A stretch of DNA of 64,000 nucleotides from an uncultured Gammaproteobacteria bacterium (lineage in GTDB: Bacteria; Pseudomonadota; Gammaproteobacteria; CAKMZV01), in NCBI GenBank assembly GCA_929200535.1, contig CAKMZV010000004.1, positions 40,654 through 104,653 on the forward strand, given 5' to 3'. The notes under the pieces are model-generated. The model had not been told where the DNA came from. It searched no databases and was given only the letters and a program-made list of their open reading frames with translations. Below, in pieces: positions 3,684-44,537 of this stretch (position 1 is the first letter of the stretch; every line of letters begins with the position of its first letter). The position numbers and the translations under genes were made by a program.

Positions 3684-4427
3684 TTATTTTAATGTTGCAT
3701 GTGTTGATAAATAAGATGGCGTGTACCAACGGCTTGGCGTTTTTTTCTCGATAATGTTTGAGAAATTAACAAAAGTTTTTTGTTTCTTTTTAATGGCATT
3801 TTTATACTCGATTTTGCTTATTTGATAACCATCCTCGGTTTTTCTAAAAAAATAGTGTGCGTATTTAGCGACTTTGTGTTTATTAAGATGTAATTTTGCA
3901 GTGAGCGGTAGTGCGTTTTTCTTATCGAGATAGAGTAAGATTTTTTTATACGTTGGTCCACGGCGTTTTTTTTCAAGTACTAATTCGCATTGGGTTTCAT
4001 CACAAGAGTTCACGTTTCCTTGATAATCATCACTCCAGCGAATATTGGTGATGTCGCCAGTGGCAGCATCACCAAAGAGTTTTTGCTGGGGCGTTATTCG
4101 CAAACCTCTTTTACTACGGGGAAGAAACATCCAGAAATTATGCTCCTTCATTAGCACCTTTTGCCCTTTCTCTGCCTGATGATGAAAAAGTACAATGGTT
4201 TTTCGTGGATTTTTGGTATAGACTTGATACTGCCTTTCTTTTATAAGTTTTTCTTTTTCAAATATTTGCACATTCACCATTAATTCACTGTCTAATGCAT
4301 TCATATAGGTATCGGCTTTTTTTAACCACGCATCGGCACGACTACCGGGCTTGTTAGGTAGCTCGTTAGTCAGAGCAAAAGTGGGGAATAAAAACAAAAA
4401 AATGAGTGAAATATAATGTATTTTCAT
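3684..4427 (-). CDS. LolA-like outer-membrane lipoprotein-sorting protein family (periplasmic)
   Basis: Signal peptide, about 250 aa. ATGA start/stop overlap with the upstream FtsX-type permease. This gene neighbourhood is typical for LolA-like proteins. Confidence 0.45.
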   Translation of the reverse strand: MKIHYISLIFLFLFPTFALTNELPNKPGSRADAWLKKADTYMNALDSELMVNVQIFEKEKLIKERQYQVYTKNPRKTIVLFHHQAEKGQKVLMKEHNFWMFLPRSKRGLRITPQQKLFGDAATGDITNIRWSDDYQGNVNSCDETQCELVLEKKRRGPTYKKILLYLDKKNALPLTAKLHLNKHKVAKYAHYFFRKTEDGYQISKIEYKNAIKKKQKTFVNFSNIIEKKTPSRWYTPSYLSTHATLK

Positions 4428-7951: not shown

Positions 7952-7957
7952 TAATAT

Positions 7958-8116
7958 GAGACCTTTGCATAAAAGTATGGCAAAAGAAAAAAGATAAAAA
8001 ATCGTTCTGATTGAGGCGTGAAACGCAGCTAATACGTCCGTCTTCGCAAGTTTCACAACGATAATCAGGACGTTTTTTTACTTTTTTACTTGTCGTATCT
8101 TTTGTGCAAAGGTCTC
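7958..8116. mobile_element. MITE-like palindromic repeat, copy A (inverted orientation relative to the other full copies)
   Basis: Begins GAGACCTTTGCA and ends TGCAAAGGTCTC, with about 45-bp terminal inverted repeats. Internal GTGAAAC...GTTTCAC hairpin core. The same sequence recurs at 15184, 22335, 25101 and 44136. Confidence 0.8.
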
Positions 8117-8134
8117 AATATATAAAGTAAATAT

Positions 8135-15183: not shown

Positions 15184-15412
15184 GAGACCTTTGCACAAAA
15201 GATATGACAAGTAAAAAAAGTAAAAAATTGCCCTGATTCTCGTTGTGAAACTTGCGAAGACGGACGTATTAGCTGCGTTTCACGCCTCAATCAGAACAAT
15301 TTTTTATCTTTTTTCTTTTACCTGCAAGCAGTTCAAACACTGTTACTCTAAAGCTCGCAAGCTTGCCAAGAGTAAAAACGTTTTTTGTGCCATACTTTTA
15401 TGCAAAGGTCTC
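15184..15412. mobile_element. MITE-like repeat, copy C (left arm + hairpin module 1 + hairpin module 2 + right arm)
   Basis: Begins GAGACCTTTGCACAAAAGATATGACAAGTAAAAAAAG and ends CATACTTTTATGCAAAGGTCTC. Holds both the GTGAAAC/GTTTCAC module and the GTTACTCT/AGAGTAAC module. Confidence 0.8.
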
Positions 15413-17006
15413 AATCTATGACATTGGCTCGTAAAAACAAGATGAGTTCGGTGTTCTTCTTTTCAGTTGAACTAAATCCAACGAAACCACCACTGCCAGG
15501 GCTGTGTTGTGATTGTTTATCATCCTTATTTTGAATAAGTCCACCAATAACAGCAACTTCATTGGGTTGAATATGTAATACAGATTCCAACTCTCTTTCT
15601 CTAAGCACTGGGATTGGACTTACGATGTCGTTTTTTGCCAACTCTGGGTGCGGATCATTAACAAAATTGAAAATCCTGGAGATTGTCGGCTTGAGGTTAA
15701 TAATAAGTGAATTGTCTGGTAGGATATTGGCTGTTAAGGTAATCACTAAACCAACAGAAATAGATTTGGCTTGTGTCTCAAATGAGACACTACTGCCAGA
15801 GGTGTTTTGTAGTGTTTTTGCTTTGATTGTAAAATAAACCACATTATCAACGACCTTTAATAAAGCAGTTTGATTATTGATAAGTTTGATTTGTGGCGAG
15901 GAAAGTACCTTGGTATCACCAAATTTTTCAATTAACCTTGCACCAAAATTTAGGCTGATGCCATCTAAAACAGCGGTAATATTGGTAATAACTCTGGGGG
16001 CAGCACCAAGATTCGCCCCAATGGCTTGTTGTGATATGCTGTTATTATCCTCAAAAATACTCCAATCAATGCCCGCCTGATATTGATCATTTAATTCAAC
16101 TTCCATAATTGCCATTTCAATATGTGTTTGGCGTCGTGCTTGTTGGTTTATTTTTGTTAATATGCTTTTGACTTGTTTATGAAGAGCCTGTTTTCCATAG
16201 ACTGAAATAATCCCAGTTTCTGGATGAACCAGAATTTGCACTTCATTGTTAGTTTGTTGTGCTTGGGTGTTGTTAAGTTTTGTCGAGGACAAGGAAAGAA
16301 TGTTGTTTGTGGCTGGGATTTTTTGATAGACAGTGCTTAAGGTAGATAACATTTTTTCCAAGCGACCCCAAAAAATGTTTTTAGATTCATTGGTGATTTC
16401 AACACTTGCTCCGGTATTTTGATTATTTTGTGTTGAGCCAATATTTTGACTAAAGCGTGTTTTGCTTAAGCTACTTCGTTTTATATTGGGGTAATTGACG
16501 GCATATTCTTTCCAATAAGCTTTGTCGTAGGTAACAACAAGAGAACGTTTATTAAGGGTAAATCGAGTGTTGGTAAGTTGAGCAAGATCTTGTAAAACAT
16601 CAGACAACGGCGTTTTTAAAGCTCGATAATGTTTTACCATAATCGTTTTTGAGGTGTTGTTTCGATAGCCAAAATTATAGCTTTTACTTAACCCATCAAG
16701 AGCTTTGTTGAGACTAATTTTTTCAAAATTAAGGCTAATAATGCGTTGCCAAAATGGGTCTTTTTTATGTGATTTTGCTTTTTTAAGTGAAGAGTTCTGC
16801 TTTCTGATTGGGGTGGCTTTTAGATAGGATTGTGTGATTGATTTTGAGGCAGTTGAATTTTTTTCTGTCCATTTTGGAGCTTGCCATTCTTTAATATTAG
16901 GGCGTTCAACTGGCACACACGCAAATAATGTGAAGCAAATAAGACTTGCTTTAACCTTAAATAAGGTTGTTTTTAAAGTTCTATAGATTGAGTAAGGAGC
17001 AAGCAA
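15411..17006 (-). CDS. secretin-family lipoprotein (MshL/PilQ-like type II/IV pilus secretin)
   Basis: N-terminal lipobox (LFACV). C-terminal secretin-like motif (PVLRERELESVLHIQPNEVAVIGGLIQN...). Confidence 0.65.
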   Translation of the reverse strand: MLAPYSIYRTLKTTLFKVKASLICFTLFACVPVERPNIKEWQAPKWTEKNSTASKSITQSYLKATPIRKQNSSLKKAKSHKKDPFWQRIISLNFEKISLNKALDGLSKSYNFGYRNNTSKTIMVKHYRALKTPLSDVLQDLAQLTNTRFTLNKRSLVVTYDKAYWKEYAVNYPNIKRSSLSKTRFSQNIGSTQNNQNTGASVEITNESKNIFWGRLEKMLSTLSTVYQKIPATNNILSLSSTKLNNTQAQQTNNEVQILVHPETGIISVYGKQALHKQVKSILTKINQQARRQTHIEMAIMEVELNDQYQAGIDWSIFEDNNSISQQAIGANLGAAPRVITNITAVLDGISLNFGARLIEKFGDTKVLSSPQIKLINNQTALLKVVDNVVYFTIKAKTLQNTSGSSVSFETQAKSISVGLVITLTANILPDNSLIINLKPTISRIFNFVNDPHPELAKNDIVSPIPVLRERELESVLHIQPNEVAVIGGLIQNKDDKQSQHSPGSGGFVGFSSTEKKNTELILFLRANVID

Positions 17007-20165: not shown

Positions 20166-21341
20166 ATGATGAAATTAGACATAAAAAAAACAGGCCTAAT
20201 AATTGTCGCATCAAGCGCGTTTATGGTCGCAAATGCCCAAGCAGCTGAAGATGGGTTTAGTGTATATGGTAATGTTGGAATAGAGCTCCACCAAATCAGT
20301 AGTAAAGCTAAAAAAGACGCCAAATCGGTCGGTGGGTTAACTACTGTAGATGGTGGTAACCGTTTTGGGTTTAAAGGTTCTAGATCATATGATGGTGGTG
20401 CAGTTGCCAGCGTTAGTGGAAATCTTGAGGTCGGAGTAGCTTTGAATGGCAATGATGTTGGTACAGACGAAGGTAAATCAACCTCGTTTGTTGGTCGTCA
20501 AGCTAATGTGCAGGTTGCTCTAAGAAATGGCGGAACATTAGGTCTTGGTCAGCAAAACAACCTTCGCGTTGGATCTGGCTGGATGGCAAATAGCTGGTGG
20601 GATTATGCTGCAGCACTTCCAAGAGCTGTTAATACTGCTCGTTACACAGGTATTAAATATGTTCACGGCTTTGGAATTGGTTCTGTTGGTATTATGCTTG
20701 GTATGGATGGTATTGATAATGGTGCTGACGAAACTTTACCAAAAGTTACAACATCGGAAACGTCATTTCAGGACGAAGCCGCTACTAGCACCCCTACTTA
20801 TGATAAAAAGGCAGGAGTACCAGCTAAAGCTAATAACGCTATTGATAAATTAACTGTGTTGCTAAGTCTTAACCCAACTAAAGCATTAGGCATTCAAGTT
20901 GGCTATGACAGTGCAAAAGGTGATAACACAGAAGATCCAATGGAAGAGACTGATACGGCTCTTGCGGTTTCTTATGGTGCCGGTCCAGTTAAGGCTCACT
21001 TGGGTTATGCAATGTATTCAAAATCACAAGGTAAACTTGCGGAAGACAAAACTTCTATTAGTTTGAATGCTACTTTTAATGCTGGTTCTGTGTCTCCTTT
21101 TGTTGGCTATAGACAATCAGAGCATTCTAATAAAGATGCGAAAGGTGAAAAAGAAGATGACTTAAAAGTTGAGACTGGTATTAGTGTTGGTGTTAATCTA
21201 AGTAAAATCCTTGGTGGTTCAGGTTTCGTAGGATATGATGCTTGGGCTAACAAAGGTGGAACAGAAGGAAATGATGAAACAGCGATTAAGTTTGGTCTTT
21301 TCTATACCTTTGCTACAGCTAACATCGGTATGAGAAACTAA
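20166..21341 (+). CDS. outer-membrane porin
   Basis: Signal peptide (ANAQAAEDG). Gly/Ser/Asn-rich alternating sequence. Strong Rho-independent terminator immediately downstream. Confidence 0.6.
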   Translation: MMKLDIKKTGLIIVASSAFMVANAQAAEDGFSVYGNVGIELHQISSKAKKDAKSVGGLTTVDGGNRFGFKGSRSYDGGAVASVSGNLEVGVALNGNDVGTDEGKSTSFVGRQANVQVALRNGGTLGLGQQNNLRVGSGWMANSWWDYAAALPRAVNTARYTGIKYVHGFGIGSVGIMLGMDGIDNGADETLPKVTTSETSFQDEAATSTPTYDKKAGVPAKANNAIDKLTVLLSLNPTKALGIQVGYDSAKGDNTEDPMEETDTALAVSYGAGPVKAHLGYAMYSKSQGKLAEDKTSISLNATFNAGSVSPFVGYRQSEHSNKDAKGEKEDDLKVETGISVGVNLSKILGGSGFVGYDAWANKGGTEGNDETAIKFGLFYTFATANIGMRN

Positions 21342-21364
21342 AAAAATCCATAGTACTTGAAAAA

Positions 21365-21390
21365 GGGAGACTTCGGTCTCCCTTTTTTTT
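21365..21390 (+). terminator. Rho-independent terminator of porin gene
   Basis: GGGAGAC-TTCG-GTCTCCC perfect 7-bp GC-rich stem followed by TTTTTTTT. Confidence 0.85.
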
Positions 21391-21659
21391 GCAAACAAAT
21401 GCTAAGGTTGCAAGCAGAGATATTTTGTTTCAATCTCTCTACGAGTCATATTTAATATAGGTAGTCTATAGTAATAACACTCTACCAAATTTAACTTAAG
21501 AATTATTATATGTTGTTACCCTAAGCCCTCGTCCTTGTCATGCAGTATTCTCCTTCTTTGTCATCCTGAATTTATTTCAGGCTCTAACCAATCTTCAGTT
21601 ACCCTATGTGTTAAACGTAGAAAATTTAGTTGGAACCGTGTATGTTATAATTATTCTTT

Positions 21660-22220
21660 ATGGAACAAGATACTTTAAATAAACCATCTAAATCTCGAAA
21701 AAAAACAACATTCACCGTTACAGAAGATAAGGTGATTGATTTGTTAATGCACGTTGCTACCAGAGATGAAGTCAATAGTTCTCGCAACGAATTAAGGGCG
21801 GAAATTGCTGAAGTACGCATTGAACTAAAGGCAGATATAGCCAATTTAGATTCTAAAATTGAAGCTGTTCGGATTGAATTAAAAACAGAGATTGCTGAAG
21901 TACGCACTGAACTAAAGGCAGATATAGCCAATTTAGATTCTAAAATTGAAGCTGTTCGGATTGAATTAAAAACAGAGATTACTGAAGTACGTACTGAACT
22001 AAAAGCAGAGATTGATGCTTTACGCACTGAACTAAAAGCAGATATAGCAAGCTTAGATTCTAAAATTGAGGGTGTACGCACAGAACTAAAAGCAGAGATT
22101 GATGCTTTACGTGAAATGTTCCAAGAACTTAACGGACGTCTTGTGACGATCGGTATTGCACTATTTGTGTTATCTTTGGGTTCTTTTTTAATGCCTCTTG
22201 CTCTTAAGTTGTTTTTTTAA
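21660..22220 (+). CDS. tail-anchored coiled-coil protein with 11/18-residue (29-aa) tandem repeats
   Basis: EVRIELKADIANLDSKIEAVRIELKTEI repeated in tandem. C-terminal hydrophobic anchor (LVTIGIALFVLSLGSFLMPLALKLFF). Confidence 0.6.
   Translation: MEQDTLNKPSKSRKKTTFTVTEDKVIDLLMHVATRDEVNSSRNELRAEIAEVRIELKADIANLDSKIEAVRIELKTEIAEVRTELKADIANLDSKIEAVRIELKTEITEVRTELKAEIDALRTELKADIASLDSKIEGVRTELKAEIDALREMFQELNGRLVTIGIALFVLSLGSFLMPLALKLFF
21805..22110 (+). repeat. 87-bp tandem repeats (two near-identical units plus degenerate third) inside coiled-coil CDS
   Basis: ATTGCTGAAGTACGCATTGAACTAAAGGCAGATATAGCCAATTTAGATTCTAAAATTGAAGCTGTTCGGATTGAATTAAAAACAGAG recurs with one or two substitutions. Confidence 0.8.
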
Positions 22221-22334
22221 TTTTGTTTTTTTCTTGCTTTTTTACACGGCTCATATTTAATAGAGGTAGTTTAAAAACCACTATTCTAAGGCTTAAATTG
22301 ATAAATTTTTTGGAATATGATTTTTATATTTATT

Positions 22335-22492
22335 GAGACCTTTGCACAAAAGATATGACAAGTAAAAAAGCAAAAAATTGCCCTGATTTTCGTTGTGAAA
22401 CTTGCGAAGACGGACGTATTGGCTACGTTTCACGCCTCAATCAGAACAATTTTTTATCTTTTTTCTTTTGCCATACTTTTATGCAAAGGTCT
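22335..22492. mobile_element. MITE-like repeat, copy D
   Basis: Same left arm, GTGAAAC...GTTTCAC core and right arm as copy C, without hairpin module 2. The track ORF 22355-22588 is just a translation of this repeat. Confidence 0.8.
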
Positions 22493-22590
22493 CTTATTAA
22501 TTTTTTAACTTACTTGCCCGTGTTTTCTTTATCAATCAAGCCCTATCCTCGTGAGGATTATTTTTTGAATAATTTAGTATTTATTTAACT

Positions 22591-23825: not shown

Positions 23826-24686
23826 ATGCCTGTTAGCCCAATTTTTCTTAATGGGGAGTGGATGCCTTTAGAACAGGCAAGCATATCGCCTTTGGATCGA
23901 GGTTTTCTTTTTGGTGATGGATGCTATGAGATTATCCCGGTTTACAGACAAAAAATTTTCCGTTTACAAAACCATTTGGATCGTTTGGCGTATTCTATGA
24001 ATGCTATTGGTATTGAAAGTGATTATACCGATAAAGATTGGACTCAAATATTTAAGCGATTGGCAAGTCAGGCTGCTCCAGATAATTTTAAATCTTACAT
24101 TTATTTACAAATCACTCGTGGTGTGGGGAAAAATAGAGACCATACCATTAGTGAAAAATTTTCTTCCACAGTTTTTGGTTATTTGGAGCTTACGGAATTT
24201 CCTTCCAACTCTCTGCTACCCAAACCGATAAATGTGTGTTTATTGGAGGATTTTCGCTGGCAACGTGGGGATATTAAGGCAATTGCATTATTGGGTTCGG
24301 TTTTAGCAAGAAAAAAAGCAATGGAGGAGGGTTTTGATGATTGTATTTTTTATCGGGATAATGAAATTGTCGAAACTTCAGCAAGCAACCTTTTTATTGT
24401 TGAGGATGGGGTGGTTAAAACGCCACCAATCTCCCCTTTATTATTAAGTGGGATTACTCGTTTAATCTTATTAGAATTGTTTGAAAAATACCGCATTCCA
24501 TTTTCTGTTGAAAAACTGAGTGTAGAGCAACTAAAAGGTGCCTCTGAAGTATGGTTAAGTAGCTCAATAAAAGAATTGGTGCCGATTATTTCAGTTGATG
24601 GTGAAAAAATAGCCGATGGAAAAATTGGCGAAATTTTACCGCAAATTTGGTTGCATTGGCAACACTATATTATGGAGAGTATATGA
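23826..24686 (+). CDS. class IV (D-amino-acid / branched-chain) aminotransferase
   Basis: Fold-type IV aminotransferase N-terminus (GFLFGDGCYEIIPVY). About 286 aa. Confidence 0.6.
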   Translation: MPVSPIFLNGEWMPLEQASISPLDRGFLFGDGCYEIIPVYRQKIFRLQNHLDRLAYSMNAIGIESDYTDKDWTQIFKRLASQAAPDNFKSYIYLQITRGVGKNRDHTISEKFSSTVFGYLELTEFPSNSLLPKPINVCLLEDFRWQRGDIKAIALLGSVLARKKAMEEGFDDCIFYRDNEIVETSASNLFIVEDGVVKTPPISPLLLSGITRLILLELFEKYRIPFSVEKLSVEQLKGASEVWLSSSIKELVPIISVDGEKIADGKIGEILPQIWLHWQHYIMESI

Positions 24687-24901
24687 AGGTTAATATTGTA
24701 ATTGAGAAGGATAATTCTGGTTATTATGCTTTTTGTCCAGAAATGAAGGGATGTCAGTCCCAAGGCAATTCACTTGATGAAGTTTTATCAAATATTAAGG
24801 AGGCGGTAGAACTTTATCTTGAAACATTATCAGTTAAGGAAAAAGAAGTTTGTCTTAGTAAAGAAATTTTAACAACTTCTTTTGAGGTGTCGGTTGCCTA
24901 A
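24683..24901 (+). CDS. hicB: type II antitoxin HicB family
   Basis: MKVNIVIEKDNSGYYAFCPEMKGCQSQGNSLDEVLSNIKEAVELYLE matches the HicB N-terminal fold. ATG overlaps the TGA of the upstream gene. Confidence 0.6.
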   Translation: MKVNIVIEKDNSGYYAFCPEMKGCQSQGNSLDEVLSNIKEAVELYLETLSVKEKEVCLSKEILTTSFEVSVA

Positions 24902-25094
24902 ACTTCCAAGATTAACAGCAGAACAAGCAGAGAAAATGCTTCTGAAAGCAGGTTTTGAACATAGTAGAAGTAAGGGTAGCCATCGTATTTATATAAGAGA
25001 CACAGAAAGATTTGTTCTTCCATTCCATAGCGGTAAAACACTACATCCTAAAATTGTAAAAAATTTAGTTGAAATTATTAAATATGACACCTAA
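24882..25094 (+). CDS. hicA: type II toxin HicA family mRNA interferase
   Basis: About 65 aa with KMLLKAGF...SKGSHRIY motif. Overlaps the hicB stop. Probably uses a TTG/GTG alternative start. Confidence 0.6.
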   Translation: MRCRLPKLPRLTAEQAEKMLLKAGFEHSRSKGSHRIYIRDTERFVLPFHSGKTLHPKIVKNLVEIIKYDT

Positions 25095-25100
25095 TAAAGT

Positions 25101-25249
25101 GAGACCTTTGCACAAAAGATATGACAAGTAAAAAAGTAAAAAACGTCCTGATTTTTATCCGCAAGCAGTTCAAACACTGTTACTCTAAGGCTCGCAAATT
25201 CACCAAGAGTAAAAACGCTTTTTGTGCCATACTTTTATGCAAAGGTCTC
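25101..25249. mobile_element. MITE-like repeat, copy E (left arm + hairpin module 2 + right arm)
   Basis: GAGACCTTTGCACAAAAGATATGACAAGTAAAAAAG ... GCAAGCAGTTCAAACACTGTTACTCTAAGGCTCGCAAATTCACCAAGAGTAAAAACG ... CATACTTTTATGCAAAGGTCTC. Confidence 0.8.
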
Positions 25250-25260
25250 AATAAGTAGAA

Positions 25261-25543: not shown

Positions 25544-28500
25544 ATGGTGGAAGCTCTTACCTTTCAAGAAATTATCACACGTTTAAATTACTTTTGGCAA
25601 CAAAAGGGATGCGTGCTGATTCAGCCCTTGGATATGGAGGTTGGGGCAGGTACTTTTCATCCGGCGACTTTTTTGCGTGCGATTGGTCCTGAGCCATGGC
25701 GTTGTGCCTATGCTCAACCTTCGCGTCGTCCTACGGATGGTCGCTTTGGAGATAATCCTAATCGATTACAGCATTATTATCAATATCAAGTCTTACTAAA
25801 GCCAGCCCCAGATAATTTGCAGGCGTTATATTTACAATCTTTGCAGGTAGTGGGCATAGATTTATCGAAAAATGATGTTCGTTTTGTTGAGGACAATTGG
25901 GAATCGCCAACCTTAGGGGCTTGGGGTTTAGGCTGGGAGGTATGGCTTAATGGTATGGAGGTAACACAATTTACTTATTTCCAACAAGTTGGTGGTTTGG
26001 AGTGTAAACCGGTGAGTGGTGAATTAACGTATGGTTTGGAACGTCTTGCAATGGCTTTGCAGGGGGTTGATAATGTGTATGACTTAGTATGGACTACCTA
26101 TGATAATACGACTATTTCGTATCATCAGGTATATCATCAAAATGAAGTTGAGCAATCACAATATAACTTTGAACTTGCTGATGTTGAAAATCTTTTTCAG
26201 CAATTTGAAAAATGCTATCAAATTTGTGGTGAATTGGTTAAAAAAGAACTCCCCTTGCCAGCGTATGAGCAAGTGATGAAGGCTTCTCATTTTTTCAACT
26301 TATTAGATGCGCGCAAGGCAATTAGCGTGACTGAAAGACAACGCTATATTTTTAGAGTGCGAGAATTGGCGTATCAAGTTGCCAAGAGTTATTCACAAAA
26401 ACGTGAGCAATTGGATTACCCATTAGGGATGATAGAAACCACTCATAAAAAGAATGATAGGGAAGTAGCACCTAATAAGTTGCTTGATATAAAAACAGGT
26501 GATTTTGTATTGGAATTAGGATGTGAAGAATTGCCTATGGATTCAGTATTGCCTCTTGGTAAAGGATTAAAAGATGGGTTTAAGAATGTTTTAACAGAAG
26601 TAGGGTTGTTTTTTGAAGACATTGTAATGTATGCAACTCCAAGGCGTTTGGCAGTGAAAATTTCAGGTCTAAATGCGATGCAAGAGGGGAGTCGGAATAA
26701 ACGCAAAGGTCCTCGTTGCGATGCTCCTGAAAAAGCACGAGAGGGTTTTGCACGCAGTTGTGGAGTATCAATCAATGATTTACGTACTGAAACAATATCT
26801 AATGTAGATTATTTAGTTTATGATGAGGTCGTTGAAGGTAGGCATTTTAGTGCATTACTCCCAGAATTATTAGAATCAATTATCAGTAGATTACCATTGA
26901 AGAAAACAATGCGATGGGAAGAAAATGAGTATCAATTTGTCCGCCCTGTGCGTTGGATAGTGGCACTTTTCAATGACTGCGTTATGCCTGTTGTGTTTTT
27001 TGGTTTGAAGGCAGATCAATATACCTATGGTCATCGTATGGACCCGCTTGCTAGTAATCAAGAGGGGGTGAAAATTGAGTTAGGAAATGCTGCGGACTAT
27101 GAGGCAACGCTTAAACAACATTCGGTAATCGCAAGCTTTACCGAACGAAGAGCAATTATTTTACAGCAATTAGAAGAACAGGCAAGTCAAAATTCAGCTA
27201 AAGTGAATATGGATGAAAATTTGCTTAATCAAGTAACTGCCTTAAATGAATTCCCAACGGTAATAACTGGTGCTTTTCCAAATCGGTTTTTATCTTTACC
27301 CAAAGAATGTTTAATTACGACCTTACAAACGCATCAAAAATATTTCACCCTCAGTGATCAATTAGGTCAATTACTTCCAATGTTTTTAACCGTTTCAAAT
27401 TTACCGAGTGAAGATTTGAGTTTAGTTAGAAAGGGGAATGAACGAGTTGTTATTCCTCGGCTTGAGGATGCTGAGTTTTTTTGGCAACAAGATAAGAAAC
27501 GTCCGTTGCAAGATTATTTTGAAAAATTAGATTCTGTGGTATTTGTTGAAGGTTTAGGAACAATGCAGCAAAAAGCCCAACGGATTGAAAAATTGGCTCT
27601 TTGGATGGCACAATTTTTACAACAAGATTCTGATAAAATTCAGCGAATTTGCAAGTTGATAAAATGCGATTTGGTAACTGATATGGTGAATGAATTTCCT
27701 GAATTGCAAGGCATTATGGGGCAACACTATGCACTTGAAAATGGTGAATTACCAGAGGTTGCAGAAGCTATCGCAGAGCATTATTTACCAAAACAAGCAC
27801 AAGGGGAACTACCATCCTCTATGCTTAGTGCGATTGTTGCTATTGCCGATAAAGTGGATACCATTGTAGGCATTCATATTGTCCAAAAAGAACCAAGTGG
27901 TAGTAGTGATCCTTTTGGACTAAGGCGTGCGGCTCTTGGGGTAATGCAAATTATTGTAGATCAAAAAATACATTTAAATTTACAAGAACTGTTAACAAAA
28001 TCAATTGACAACTGGCAAAATCAATTGCAGGAAGAAAAGCAATTAGAGGTGTTATCTAAGGTTGAGACTTTTATGTGGGGGCGTTTATATGCTTTATACA
28101 CCAAAGAGAAGCAAGTGCCGGCACCACTCTATCAAGCTGTGATGGCGGTTAAACCATTAAATCCTTATGAGTTTGAGCTTCGTCTTATTGCAGTGCAAAA
28201 ATTTGTCAAACTACCAGAAGCAAAATCATTGAGTGAAACGAATACACGCATTAAAAATATTTTGCAAAAGAATCCTAATGATCAGGGTGCTTTGGTTGAT
28301 GAGGGCTTGTTACATATTGAAGAAGAAAAAGAGCTGTATGTTTGTTTGCAAAAGGTAGAGGAAAAAATCCAACATATTACGAACGATTATTTTACTATTC
28401 TTGAAGCATTAAGTGAGCTGGCTGAGCCTGTGGAGCAGTTTTTTTCCAATGTAATGGTGATGGATGAAGATCTTGCAAAACGCAAAAATCGCCTTGCGTT

Positions 28501-28561
28501 ATTATCTCAATTACGTCAATGTTTTATGCCAGTAGCTGATATATCATTATTGCAATTATAA
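25544..28561 (+). CDS. glyQS: glycine--tRNA ligase, fused alpha (GlyQ) and beta (GlyS) subunits
   Basis: N-terminal 300 aa is GlyQ-like ([34 protein letters not shown]). The remainder is GlyS-like. Single 1005-aa ORF. Confidence 0.85.
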
Positions 28562-34170: not shown

Positions 34171-34199
34171 CTTTTGCCATACTTTTATGCAAAGGTCTC
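34171..34199. repeat. partial MITE right-arm fragment (copy G)
   Basis: CTTTTGCCATACTTTTATGCAAAGGTCTC is identical to the 3' arm of the full copies. Confidence 0.6.
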
Positions 34200-34241
34200 A
34201 GTATCTCAAAAATGATAAAAATAGTAAGATAATTAAATATA

Positions 34242-44008: not shown

Positions 44009-44135
44009 CCTTTTTTGTTATAACACATATATTATTTTCGTCGTTGCGAGGGAGTAGGGTTGCCACGTTTTTCTCGTACTAACGTGATATTTTCAGAGTT
44101 CTTTTATTTGCTTCCAGAATCGTGGGAACAATCTG

Positions 44136-44431
44136 AAACCTTTGCACAAAAGATATGATAAGTAAAAAAGTAAAAAATCGCCCTGATTTTTATTCGCAAG
44201 CGCTTCAAACGCTGTTACTCTAAGGTTCGTAAACTCACCAAGAGTAAAAACGCTTTTTGTGTTGTGAAACTTGCGAAGACGGACGTATTAGCTTCATTTC
44301 ACGCCTCAATCAGAATAATTTTTTATCTTTTTTCTTTTACCTGCAAGCAGTTCAAACACTGTTACTCTAAGGCTCGCAAGCTCGCCAAGAGTAAAAACGT
44401 TTTTTGTGCCATACTTTTATGCAAAGGTCTC
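44136..44431. mobile_element. composite MITE-like repeat, copy H (left arm + module 2 + module 1 + module 2 + right arm)
   Basis: About 296 bp. Begins (GA)AACCTTTGCACAAAAGATATGATAAG and ends CATACTTTTATGCAAAGGTCTC. Carries two copies of the GTTACTCT/AGAGTAAC module flanking one GTGAAAC/GTTTCAC module. Confidence 0.8.
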
Positions 44432-44537
44432 AATCTGTGAAATAAATATTATTTTTTCGGTGGTTTTCGTCTTATCTTATAACAATATTAAAAGCCATTT
44501 TTCCTAAATTGTTTAACAAATATTATTTTTTACCATT

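What the first reader, a model, noticed from the sequence alone, without database searches (positions are those of the whole stretch)
21441..22290. Tail-anchored coiled-coil protein built from hendecad (11/18-residue) repeats, flanked by about 24-bp direct repeats
The 186-aa ORF carries E[VA]R[IT]ELK[AT][ED]I blocks at alternating 11- and 18-residue spacing. Two units come from perfect 87-bp DNA tandem repeats. It ends in a single C-terminal transmembrane anchor. Hendecad periodicity is typical of lipid-surface amphipathic helices such as apolipoproteins, perilipins, synuclein and LEA proteins. The gene sits after a strong terminator in a 320-bp non-coding stretch. It is bracketed by direct repeats TCATATTTAATA(T/G)AGGTAGT(C/T)TA at 21447-21472 and 22251-22276, and MITE copy D follows. 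Tandem-repeat number could vary between strains, giving a phase- or antigen-variable surface or membrane protein.
Basis: partly seen in the sequence, partly recalled or inferred. Interest (0 to 1): 0.65.

Follow-up and report, generated by a model that had tools for sequence, protein, structure and literature searches.

The report
Tail-anchored DUF1640/CCDC90-like coiled-coil membrane protein
The repeat-rich 186-residue gene is real, but it is an ordinary, divergent member of the known DUF1640/CCDC90-like (Bdr-like) family of membrane-anchored coiled-coil stalk proteins, not a lipid-coating or variable surface protein.

Summary
ORF 21660-22220 (+, 186 aa) has R[IT]ELK[AT][ED]I blocks spaced 18/11/18/11/11/18 residues. 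It has two 87-bp tandem units identical at 86 of 87 positions and one C-terminal transmembrane helix. It is flanked by 23-28-bp direct repeats, with a MITE downstream.

The interpretation needs revising. The protein belongs to the DUF1640/CCDC90-like family (Pfam PF07798), integral membrane proteins of prokaryotes and mitochondria. It carries the family's beta-layer motif (VATRDE, residues 32-37) at the start of the stalk. A profile built with its homologues hits the solved family members 6H9L (E 1.2e-8) and 6H9M (CCDC90B, E 4e-4). It also matches a Borrelia Bdr protein (hhalign 98.6%) and phage DUF1640 proteins.

Hydrophobic periodicity is 3.625 residues per turn. The seam is narrow (about 100 degrees), with positive charge on one flank and negative on the other. 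That fits a coiled-coil core, not an apolipoprotein-type lipid face.

With no signal peptide and a tail anchor, the stalk should face the cytoplasm, so surface antigenic variation is unlikely. The 87-bp unit is in frame, so copy changes alter stalk length, not expression. Such 7/11-residue length steps occur among close homologues elsewhere, but every contig retrieved by the exact-sequence look-up, spanning two strain backgrounds, carries the same allele.

The direct repeats are real but unexplained. Biochemical function is unknown family-wide.

The parts
21359..21390 (+). Intrinsic terminator hairpin plus T-run ending the upstream porin gene (20166-21341)
   Evidence: RNA fold -20.3 kcal/mol, z = -4.77, 0 of 200 shuffles as stable. 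Porin_4 Pfam hit for the upstream ORF.
21441..21468 (+). Direct repeat copy 1 (core 21446-21468)
   Evidence: only two copies in 64 kb, none in shuffles. Weak gapped similarity continues for about 100 nt.
21643..21651 (+). Candidate extended -10 promoter TGTTATAAT, 8 nt before the ATG. There is no Shine-Dalgarno, which suggests a leaderless mRNA (inferred).
   Evidence: One of only 2 TGNTATAAT sites in the window, against 5.35 expected. No SD motif upstream. The subfamily relative in L052 has TATAAT 7 nt before its ATG.
21660..22220 (+). CDS for a 186-aa DUF1640/CCDC90-like tail-anchored coiled-coil protein
21660..21749 (+). N-terminal region: disordered basic tail (residues 1-21, net charge +3) and a short head helix (residues 22-30). 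The head is truncated relative to the family consensus FDTxK..L..AGF..QAEA.
   Evidence: AF2 pLDDT below 50 for residues 1-17, helix at 22-30. Alignment A1. Conserved in relatives P0245 and P0262.
21753..21770 (+). Beta-layer motif VATRDE (residues 32-37) at the start of the stalk
   Evidence: A33 and T34 are invariant in alignment A1. The motif [ILVMF]AT[KR]x[DE] is present in about half of the top 120 homologues. Family consensus [aliphatic]-A-T-K-[polar]-[DE] is given in PMC4786415. AF2 shows a helix break at residues 31-34.
21771..22148 (+). Coiled-coil stalk (residues 38-163) of 11- and 18-residue units, roughly 19 nm if fully helical
   Evidence: Periodicity peak at 3.625 residues per turn (power 90, against 4 at 3.5). 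Hydrophobic spacing runs 4-3-4-3, with no Pro. AF2 gives a single helix 35-185 with pLDDT about 98.
21804..21977 (+). Two 87-bp (29-codon) tandem units, 86/87 identical. The TRF array of 2.4 copies runs to 22009.
22149..22205 (+). C-terminal transmembrane anchor (residues 164-182), followed by a 4-residue tail
   Evidence: Mean Kyte-Doolittle 2.27 over 19 residues. The same C-terminal anchor is present in homologues.
22246..22273 (+). Direct repeat copy 2 (core 22251-22273)
22335..22493 (.). MITE copy with 43-nt terminal inverted repeats. It is not part of the gene. The 77-aa ORF inside it is probably spurious.
   Evidence: Codon score 0.12. In strain contigs L002/L004 an rve-type IS begins at the same position.

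Best explanation
The ORF encodes a divergent, head-truncated member of the DUF1640/CCDC90-like family. This is the family of mitochondrial MCUR1/CCDC90B, of their prokaryotic homologues, and (by profile comparison) of a Borrelia Bdr protein and DUF1640-annotated prophage genes.

Shown here:
- Homology to the family.
- The beta-layer motif VATRDE.
- A continuous helical stalk of about 125 residues with a 3.625-residue hydrophobic periodicity, built from hendecads and 18-residue (11+7) units.
- A C-terminal transmembrane anchor.
- A recent in-frame 87-bp duplication that lengthened the stalk by 29 residues.

Inferred:
- The protein inserts as a tail-anchored inner-membrane protein.
- It forms a parallel trimer, like other beta-layer-capped coiled coils.
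- It projects a rigid stalk of about 19 nm into the cytoplasm. The tip is a small conserved head helix plus a basic disordered tail, and would be the partner-binding end.
- It therefore acts as a membrane-tethered scaffold or spacer. Its reach is tuned by gaining or losing 7- and 11-residue units through recombination between DNA repeats.
- It is probably transcribed on its own from an extended -10 promoter that abuts the start codon, giving a leaderless mRNA.

The binding partner and physiological role are unknown, as they are for the bacterial family as a whole.
For: Family membership:
- Pfam PF07798 scores 32.0 bits (E 1.4e-7).
- Most of the 120 listed homologues carry PF07798 in the precomputed annotation; best E 8e-26.
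- About half of the top 120 have [ILVMF]AT[KR]x[DE] plus a C-terminal TM with a tail of 0-12 residues.
- In alignment A1, A33 and T34 are invariant, and all 22 members hit PF07798 (best E 2.6e-19).
- The A1 profile hits PDB 6H9L at E 1.2e-8 and 6H9M (CCDC90B) at E 4e-4. Both rank above every apolipoprotein.
- PMC4786415 defines DUF1640 as integral membrane proteins of prokaryotes and mitochondria with this motif at the start of the stalk.
- hhalign of A1 against a Bdr protein gives probability 98.6%, E 8.5e-16, across head, motif, repeats and TM.
- phrog_9415 hits at E 4e-21. APSE-1 P47 and Liberibacter SC1/SC2 proteins are annotated DUF1640.

Structure and sequence features:
- AF2 (mean pLDDT 87): disordered 1-21, helix 22-30, break 31-34, helix 35-185.
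- Periodicity and charge-segregated narrow seam.
- Codon score 0.394, above the gene mean of 0.254.

Subfamily relatives:
- P0245 (124 aa) shares the sequence TEDKVIDLLMHxATRxEVN and the C-terminal ending, but has a much shorter stalk.
- Stalk-length steps of 7 and 11 aa occur within one close clade.

Promoter:
-.

Topology by analogy:
- The yeast homologues are matrix-facing (PMC7519068).
- Bdr proteins associate with the inner membrane (PMC10016077).
Against: - The Pfam score is 1.5 bits below the gathering threshold.
- The query alone hits 6H9L only at E 0.4.
- Much of the similarity lies in low-complexity coiled-coil repeats, which inflate scores. Hits include proteins with N-terminal TMs and giant repeat proteins.
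- The canonical first head helix (FDTxK..L..AG) is missing.
- Oligomeric state, topology, expression and the leaderless start are all untested.
- The monomer AF2 model gives no useful fold match.
- Homologues share no conserved gene neighbourhood that would support any specific function.
Confidence: 0.85

Rival explanations
1. First reader's model. The hendecad repeats form a lipid-surface amphipathic helix (apolipoprotein, perilipin, synuclein or LEA type) that lies on a membrane or lipid surface, anchored by the C-terminal helix.
For: - 11-residue periodicity.
- Sub-threshold Apolipoprotein Pfam hit (32 bits, E 1.2e-7).
- Apolipoprotein A-IV, A-I and E are the top single-sequence PDB hits (E 0.003-0.02).
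Against: - The Apolipoprotein score is far below the cut-off (32 versus 90).
- With the family profile, 6H9L and 6H9M outrank all apolipoproteins.
- There is no proline punctuation: 0 Pro in 129 stalk residues.
- Strongly hydrophobic residues fill only an arc of about 100 degrees (3 of 11 positions).
- Charges are split, with R/K on one flank and E/D on the other. Class A helices instead have basic residues at both interfaces.
- The beta-layer motif at the stalk start marks trimeric coiled coils.
Confidence: 0.05
2. A phase- or antigen-variable surface protein, whose tandem-repeat copy number changes to switch expression or evade recognition.
For: - Near-perfect 87-bp tandem duplication.
- Repeat-number polymorphism in related Bdr genes (PMC3303823) and in a close metagenomic clade.
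Against: - The unit is 29 codons, so copy changes keep the reading frame. There is no on/off switching.
- No signal peptide or lipobox. A tail anchor with a 4-residue tail predicts a cytoplasmic stalk in a porin-bearing diderm.
- The identical protein is present in all 6 contigs read, and there are no nucleotide differences in the ORF between two strains that differ at 8 sites in the adjacent 190 bp. This retrieval was by exact sequence, so length variants could not have been seen.
- Simulated -1, +1 and +2 unit variants are absent from the protein collection. This is a weak test, because the reference allele is absent too.
Confidence: 0.04
3. The gene is a horizontally acquired cassette, possibly of prophage origin. 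It was inserted between the porin gene and dacA, and the 23-28-bp direct repeats are the insertion scars.
For: - Direct repeats bracket the gene plus its 190-bp upstream region.
- Homologues sit in temperate phages of symbionts (APSE-1, phiSG1, Liberibacter SC1/SC2) and on Borrelia cp32 prophages.
- Mobile elements (a MITE or an IS) lie immediately downstream.
- Gene order is not conserved in the relative with 66%-identical DacA (L046) or around the subfamily relative (L052).
Against: - No integrase, phage or plasmid genes lie nearby.
- GC content is 35.3% against 36.7% for the window, and codon usage is typical of the host.
- No empty site is available for comparison.
- The repeats are absent around the relative in L052.
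- The repeats could be duplicated intergenic or regulatory sequence. Weak similarity runs for about 100 nt.
Confidence: 0.12
4. A spurious ORF over a non-coding tandem repeat.
For: - No Shine-Dalgarno motif.
- A long ORF also runs on the opposite strand.
- No precomputed Pfam annotation on the public gene call.
Against: - Hundreds of homologues share the same head, motif, stalk and anchor architecture.
- The non-repetitive N- and C-termini are conserved in P0245.
- Codon score is above the gene average.
- Only about 13 of 35 window genes have an SD motif, so its absence means little.
Confidence: 0.02

Closest known systems
DUF1640 / CCDC90-like family (Pfam PF07798): human MCUR1 and CCDC90B, yeast Put6/Put7, and prokaryotic homologues (PDB 6H9L, 6H9M)
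   Same: Beta-layer motif ([aliphatic]-A-T-K/R-polar-D/E) at the start of a long coiled-coil stalk. Single C-terminal transmembrane helix. Size of 150-220 aa in bacteria. Hendecad-rich stalk.
   Different: The first head helix (FDTxK..L..AGF) is replaced by a basic disordered tail. K is replaced by R in the motif. The Pfam score is 1.5 bits under threshold. The stalk alternates 11- and 18-residue units. There is no mitochondrial context (MCU, proline metabolism).
Borrelia Bdr (Borrelia direct repeat) proteins
   Same: Profile match of 98.6% probability across head, motif position, repeats and C-terminal anchor. The 18-residue unit is nearly shared (ELKADIRDLDNKIEKIEA versus ELKADIANLDSKIEAVRI). 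Bdr proteins are inner-membrane associated, vary in repeat number between strains, and have unknown function.
   Different: Bdr genes form multi-copy paralogous families on cp32 prophage plasmids of spirochaetes. This gene is single-copy within the 64-kb window, in a chromosomal-looking context in a gammaproteobacterium. Identity is only 35%, and the motif position in Bdr reads LTHKDI.
Prophage DUF1640 proteins (Hamiltonella phage APSE-1 P47, Sodalis phiSG1 gp49, Liberibacter SC1/SC2 gp27; phrog_9415)
   Same: The full-length matches, APSE-1 P47 and phiSG1 gp49, cover 80-83% of the query including its C-terminal anchor. P47 read directly has a head, a VATKAD motif, tandem 33-bp repeats encoding hendecads, and the C-terminal ending FLMPAL (here FLMPLAL). 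The Liberibacter hits cover only 51-62% of the query, within the stalk.
   Different: These are phage-borne and sit next to replication genes (DNA polymerase or primase). No phage genes surround the window gene. Identity is 31-48%.
Exchangeable apolipoproteins (A-I, A-IV, E) and other 11-mer amphipathic lipid-binding helices
   Same: 11/22-residue sequence periodicity and high E/K/R/A/L content. There are weak sequence hits.
   Different: The window protein has no proline punctuation, a narrow hydrophobic seam, charges segregated to opposite flanks, a membrane anchor and a beta-layer motif. Scores are far below family thresholds.
E. coli tail-anchored inner-membrane proteins ElaB/YqjD/YgaM (DUF883). 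This is a recollection and was not tested here.
   Same: Small cytoplasm-facing helical proteins held in the inner membrane by a C-terminal helix.
   Different: No DUF883 hit appears among the listed Pfam matches. The repeat architecture differs. No ribosome-binding evidence exists here.

Membership tests
DUF1640 / CCDC90-like (PF07798) | Score at or above the Pfam gathering threshold for PF07798 | tested here: inconclusive
   32.0 bits against a cut-off of 33.5 (E 1.4e-7). All 22 members of alignment A1 match PF07798 at E <= 1e-3, best 2.6e-19.
DUF1640 / CCDC90-like (PF07798) | Beta-layer motif [aliphatic]-A-T-K-[polar]-[D/E] at the start of the stalk (PMC4786415) | tested here: met
   VATRDE at residues 32-37, with a conservative K to R change. 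A33 and T34 are invariant in A1. AF2 shows a helix break at 31-34.
DUF1640 / CCDC90-like (PF07798) | Single C-terminal transmembrane helix with a very short tail | tested here: met
   Residues 164-182, Kyte-Doolittle 2.27, 4-residue tail. Homologues have tails of 0-12 residues.
DUF1640 / CCDC90-like (PF07798) | Long coiled-coil stalk between head and anchor | tested here: met
   Periodicity 3.625, hydrophobic spacing 4-3-4-3. Single helix 35-185 at pLDDT about 98.
DUF1640 / CCDC90-like (PF07798) | Full N-terminal head (consensus FDTxK..L..AGF..QAEA) | tested here: not met
   Only the second-helix equivalent is present (TFTVTEDKVIDLLMH). The first helix is replaced by MEQDTLNKPSKSRKK. The same truncated head is seen in P0245 and P0262.
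DUF1640 / CCDC90-like (PF07798) | Sequence relationship to the solved family members 6H9L and 6H9M | tested here: met
   The profile containing the query gives 6H9L E 1.2e-8 and 6H9M E 4e-4. The query alone gives only E 0.4.
DUF1640 / CCDC90-like (PF07798) | Parallel trimeric assembly | not testable with these tools
   Only monomer prediction is available. The solved relatives have 3 chains per entry, and beta-layer constructs were trimeric.
Borrelia Bdr family | Homologous head, repeat and anchor architecture | tested here: met
   hhalign probability 98.6%, E 8.5e-16. BLASTP 35% identity, E 5e-17.
Borrelia Bdr family | Multi-copy paralogues on Borrelia cp32 and linear plasmids | tested here: not met
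   Single copy in the 64-kb window, in a gammaproteobacterial chromosomal context. No plasmid match.
Apolipoprotein A1/A4/E (PF01442) and class A amphipathic helices | Pfam threshold, proline-punctuated 22-mers, a wide hydrophobic face and basic residues at both interfaces | tested here: not met
   32 bits against a cut-off of 90. 0 Pro in the stalk. Hydrophobic arc of about 100 degrees, with R/K and E/D on opposite flanks.
Phase-variable contingency locus | Repeat-unit changes shift the reading frame or promoter spacing | tested here: not met
   The unit is 87 bp, or 29 codons, and lies inside the CDS.

The most novel reading that the evidence does not exclude
The head-truncated DUF1640 subfamily (this protein, P0245 and P0262) is a distinct class of leaderless-mRNA-encoded, cytoplasm-facing membrane 'rulers'. 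Its basic disordered tip would tether a nucleic-acid or replication/translation complex to the inner membrane. This idea comes from the recurrent placement of phage and plasmid homologues beside replication genes. In this genome the gene would have arrived as a small cassette bounded by direct repeats.
Probability: 0.08. Interest if true: 0.55.

Novelty: new member of a known kind. Interest (0 to 1): 0.25.

Why it matters
The result corrects an attractive but wrong analogy. Hendecad periodicity here marks a near-straight coiled-coil stalk, not a lipid-coating helix.

It places an unannotated gene in the DUF1640/CCDC90-like family; the public gene call carries no Pfam hit. It also shows by profile comparison that a Borrelia Bdr protein (P0115) and DUF1640-annotated symbiont-phage proteins share this architecture.

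The bacterial function of the family is still unknown. A compact, head-truncated member with a naturally duplicated stalk unit could be a convenient model for asking whether stalk length matters. Otherwise the locus is ordinary.

Tried and rejected
- Genome scan with the neighbouring DacA, looking for syntenic relatives or an empty site: only one distant Bacillota hit. The closest DacA relatives (66% identity) sit on contigs of 2 kb or less. The one examined (L046) has a tRNA upstream, and its upstream DNA shows no significant similarity.
- Exact look-up of simulated repeat-number variants (-1, +1, +2 units): none found. The reference allele is also absent from that collection, so the test is weak.
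- Foldseek of the monomer model against the PDB: uninformative, as expected for a single long helix.
- Rfam at gathering and permissive thresholds, and folding of both flanking non-coding stretches: nothing beyond chance.
- Conserved gene neighbourhood among homologues: none.
- Plasmid database searches with the locus and with the upstream element: no match.
- Direct repeats as a conserved promoter: no convincing shared -10/-35, and the repeats are not found near the L052 relative.
- Adlakha et al. 2019 (Structure 27:464) and the primary Bdr papers could not be read in the held library.
Full report
**Observation**

The region reads as the first-stage reader described.
- ORF 21660-22220 (+) encodes 186 residues.
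- The block R[IT]ELK[AT][ED]I recurs at residues 53, 71, 82, 100, 111, 122 and 140. The spacings are 18, 11, 18, 11, 11 and 18.
- Tandem Repeats Finder reports a period-87 array of 2.4 copies at 21804-22009.
- The two full units differ at one base (21820 T/C, Ile/Thr). They are near-perfect rather than perfect.
- Residues 164-182 are strongly hydrophobic (mean Kyte-Doolittle 2.27) and are followed by only four residues.
- The upstream porin gene (Porin_4) ends in a strong hairpin plus T-run (-20.3 kcal/mol, z = -4.8).
- A 318-bp gap follows the porin gene.
- A 23-nt direct repeat (21/23 identical, extendable to 28 nt) lies at 21446-21468 and 22251-22273. It occurs nowhere else in the window, and 0 of 100 shuffles gave a match.
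- A MITE with 43-nt inverted ends sits at 22335-22493, and further copies lie elsewhere in the window.

**Is the gene real?**

Yes.
- Codon usage scores 0.394 against 0.254 +/- 0.048 for 35 long window genes. The antisense ORF scores 0.197.
- There are 1073 database proteins with E <= 1e-3, the best at 8e-26. An exhaustive search of 1.84 billion representatives finds 2248 (151 at E <= 1e-10).
- Conservation extends to the non-repetitive ends. P0245 (124 aa) shares ...T(I/V)TEDKVIDLLMHxATR(D/E)EVN... and the C-terminal ...P..LK.FF, but has a much shorter stalk.
- The exact protein is encoded on contigs from at least five metagenome samples. The window is 100% identical to one of them.

**What it is**
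- Pfam's CCDC90-like model (PF07798, formerly DUF1640) scores 32.0 bits. This is 1.5 bits below its cut-off, and level with the compositional hit to Apolipoprotein, whose cut-off is 90.
- Most homologues carry PF07798 in the precomputed annotation.
- About half of the top 120 have the motif [ILVMF]AT[KR]x[DE] at residues 35-100 plus a C-terminal hydrophobic helix with a tail of 0-12 residues.
- In an alignment with 21 such homologues (A1), A33 and T34 of the query are invariant. Its VATRDE (residues 32-37) aligns with the family's VATKxD. All 22 members match PF07798.
- Hartmann et al. (eLife 2016, PMC4786415) describe DUF1640 as integral membrane proteins of prokaryotes and mitochondria. These carry the beta-layer motif [aliphatic]-A-T-K-[polar]-[DE] at the beginning of their stalk.
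- The A1 profile finds the solved family members 6H9L (E 1.2e-8, with the motif aligned) and 6H9M (CCDC90B, E 4e-4). Both rank ahead of every apolipoprotein.
- AlphaFold2 (mean pLDDT 87) gives a disordered N-terminus (1-21), a short helix (22-30), a break at 31-34, and one helix from 35 to 185.
- The canonical first head helix (FDTxK..L..AGF) is missing. A basic tail, MEQDTLNKPSKSRKK, takes its place. This is therefore a head-truncated subfamily, shared with P0245 and P0262.

**Coiled coil, not lipid face**
- Within the alpha-helical range, the hydrophobicity spectrum of residues 38-161 peaks at 3.625 residues per turn (29/8). Power there is 90, against 4 at 3.5. The scan's overall maximum was at about 2.23 residues, which I took to be a harmonic of the 11-residue repeat.
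- Strongly hydrophobic residues follow an unbroken 4-3-4-3 spacing.
- On a 29/8 wheel, all Leu and Val and most Ile lie between -37 and +62 degrees.
- Arg and Lys lie on one flank (+62 to +124 degrees). Glu and Asp lie on the other (-37 to -124 degrees). Ala, Thr and Ser lie opposite the seam.
- The stalk contains no proline.
- A narrow seam with oppositely charged flanks is what a parallel homo-oligomeric bundle needs. From general knowledge, class A lipid-binding helices have a wide non-polar face, basic residues at both interfaces and proline punctuation.
- 11 + 7 = 18 residues over five turns is an established coiled-coil periodicity.

**Relatives and variation**
- A Borrelia miyamotoi Bdr protein aligns at 35% identity. 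It matches the A1 profile at 98.6% probability over head, motif position, repeats and anchor.
- Bdr proteins are inner-membrane associated and of unknown function (PMC10016077). bdrT has about 9 versus about 6 repeats in 99.4% identical strains (PMC3303823).
- Phage homologues exist: phrog_9415 (E 4e-21), APSE-1 P47, Sodalis phiSG1 gp49 and Liberibacter SC1/SC2 gp27. The examined ones lie beside DNA polymerase or primase genes.
- APSE-1 P47 carries tandem 33-bp repeats and ends in FLMPAL.
- Within one metagenomic clade, the N-terminal 45 and C-terminal 35 residues are 94-100% identical while lengths are 155, 162, 169, 180, 191, 198 and 209 aa. These are steps of 7 and 11 residues.
- Stalk length is therefore evolutionarily labile in this family. 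The 87-bp duplication here is a recent example.
- In this organism no variation was seen, but the retrieval was by exact sequence, so only the reference allele could be found. Two strain backgrounds are 99.4% identical over 2.3 kb and carry identical ORFs. Their differences (8 of 11) cluster at 21398-21588 in the upstream spacer.
- Simulated copy-number variants were not found. That is a weak test.

**Topology and the variable-surface idea**
- There is no signal peptide or lipobox.
- A highly charged 160-residue N-terminal part with a C-terminal anchor and a 4-residue tail predicts a cytoplasmic stalk. This is an inference.
- The eukaryotic homologues are matrix-facing, which is the equivalent side.
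- The repeat unit is 29 codons, so slippage cannot switch the gene off.
- The 'phase- or antigen-variable surface protein' reading is therefore unlikely.

**Expression signals (inferred)**
- No Shine-Dalgarno motif precedes the ATG, but only about 13 of 35 window genes have one.
- TGTTATAAT, a perfect extended -10, lies at 21643-21651, 8 nt before the ATG. It is one of only two TGNTATAAT sites in 64 kb, against 5.35 expected.
- The subfamily relative in L052 has TATAAT 7 nt before its ATG.
- This suggests a leaderless transcript.

**Flanking direct repeats**
- They are real but unexplained.
- Gapped similarity continues weakly for about 100 nt. The score is 65-75 against 48.5 +/- 6.9 in shuffles (shuffle maximum 72), and most of it comes from the core.
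- No close genome was available for an empty-site test.
- The nearest DacA relative has a different upstream gene and no similar DNA.
- The L052 relative lacks the repeat.
- Insertion scar, duplicated intergenic sequence and regulatory site all remain possible.

**Context**
- The organism is a low-GC (36.7%) gammaproteobacterium without close sequenced relatives. The best named DacA matches are about 50% identical (Thiosocius, Chromatiaceae, Sedimenticolaceae).
- Neighbourhoods of homologues are not conserved.

**Verdict**

This is a genuine gene. It is a new, head-truncated member of the known DUF1640/CCDC90-like (Bdr-like) family. The most likely form is a tail-anchored, cytoplasm-facing, probably trimeric coiled-coil stalk of about 19 nm, whose length evolves by repeat gain and loss. 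Interest is low to moderate.

Noticed in passing
window 22335-22493; also about 7957-8117, 15184-15414, 25101-25251, 34172-34210, 44135-44432; L002 10676-11787: A MITE family with ends GAGACCTTTGCACAAAAG.../...CTTTTATGCAAAGGTCTC. In a 99.4%-identical strain (L002, L004) an rve-type IS with a 326-aa transposase starts at exactly the MITE's left end at this locus. The IS shares only GAGACCTTT with the MITE. Either this is a hot insertion site, or the IS is the MITE's autonomous partner.
   Followed up: partly
window 22355-22588: A 77-aa ORF called as a gene in public assemblies lies wholly inside the MITE. It has a low codon score (0.12) and no Pfam hit, so it is probably spurious.
   Followed up: partly
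window 21643-21651; L052 5985-6001: An extended -10 (TGTTATAAT) lies 8 nt before the ATG, and TATAAT lies 7 nt before the ATG of the subfamily relative. Neither gene has an SD motif. Both are candidate leaderless mRNAs.
   Followed up: partly
window 21398-21588: 8 of the 11 differences between the two strain backgrounds (substitutions and indels) cluster in this 190-bp non-coding stretch upstream of the gene. None fall in the 561-bp ORF or in the 120 bp after it. Two independent assemblies (L003, L005) have contig ends at window 21411, next to the variant sites.
   Followed up: partly
L050 3884-4456 (APSE-1 P47) and 3889-4230 (P48, opposite strand): In phage APSE-1 the DUF1640 gene P47 has five perfect 33-bp tandem repeats. 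Its antisense mirror ORF is annotated as 'putative tail fibre protein' (P48). This is likely the same mirror artefact as the window's antisense ORF.
   Followed up: no
L050, L051; Borrelia cp32 (PMC10016077): Phage and plasmid DUF1640/Bdr genes recur next to replication functions: DNA polymerase in APSE-1, primase in Liberibacter SC2, and the replication locus on cp32. This may be a functional hint for the family.
   Followed up: no
L049 4001-6935: One homologue locus carries three CCDC90-like genes (184, 83 and 105 aa) interspersed with two N_methyl (type IV pilin-like) genes, downstream of a PilS-like kinase, a response regulator and a sigma-54 activator.
   Followed up: no
window 24683-25095 and 25544-28561: A HicB/HicA toxin-antitoxin pair lies next to another MITE copy. 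A fused glycyl-tRNA synthetase (alpha plus beta, 1005 aa) lies downstream. The HicAB pair is replaced by a 327-aa gene without Pfam hits in contig L003.
   Followed up: no
window 21535-21600: A short hairpin-containing stretch (TGTCATCCTGAATTTATTTCAGGCTC) whose translation reads CHPEFISGS. It reminded me of a widespread short repeat seen as spurious ORFs in many bacteria. There is only one copy in the window and no plasmid-database match, so the resemblance is unverified.
   Followed up: partly
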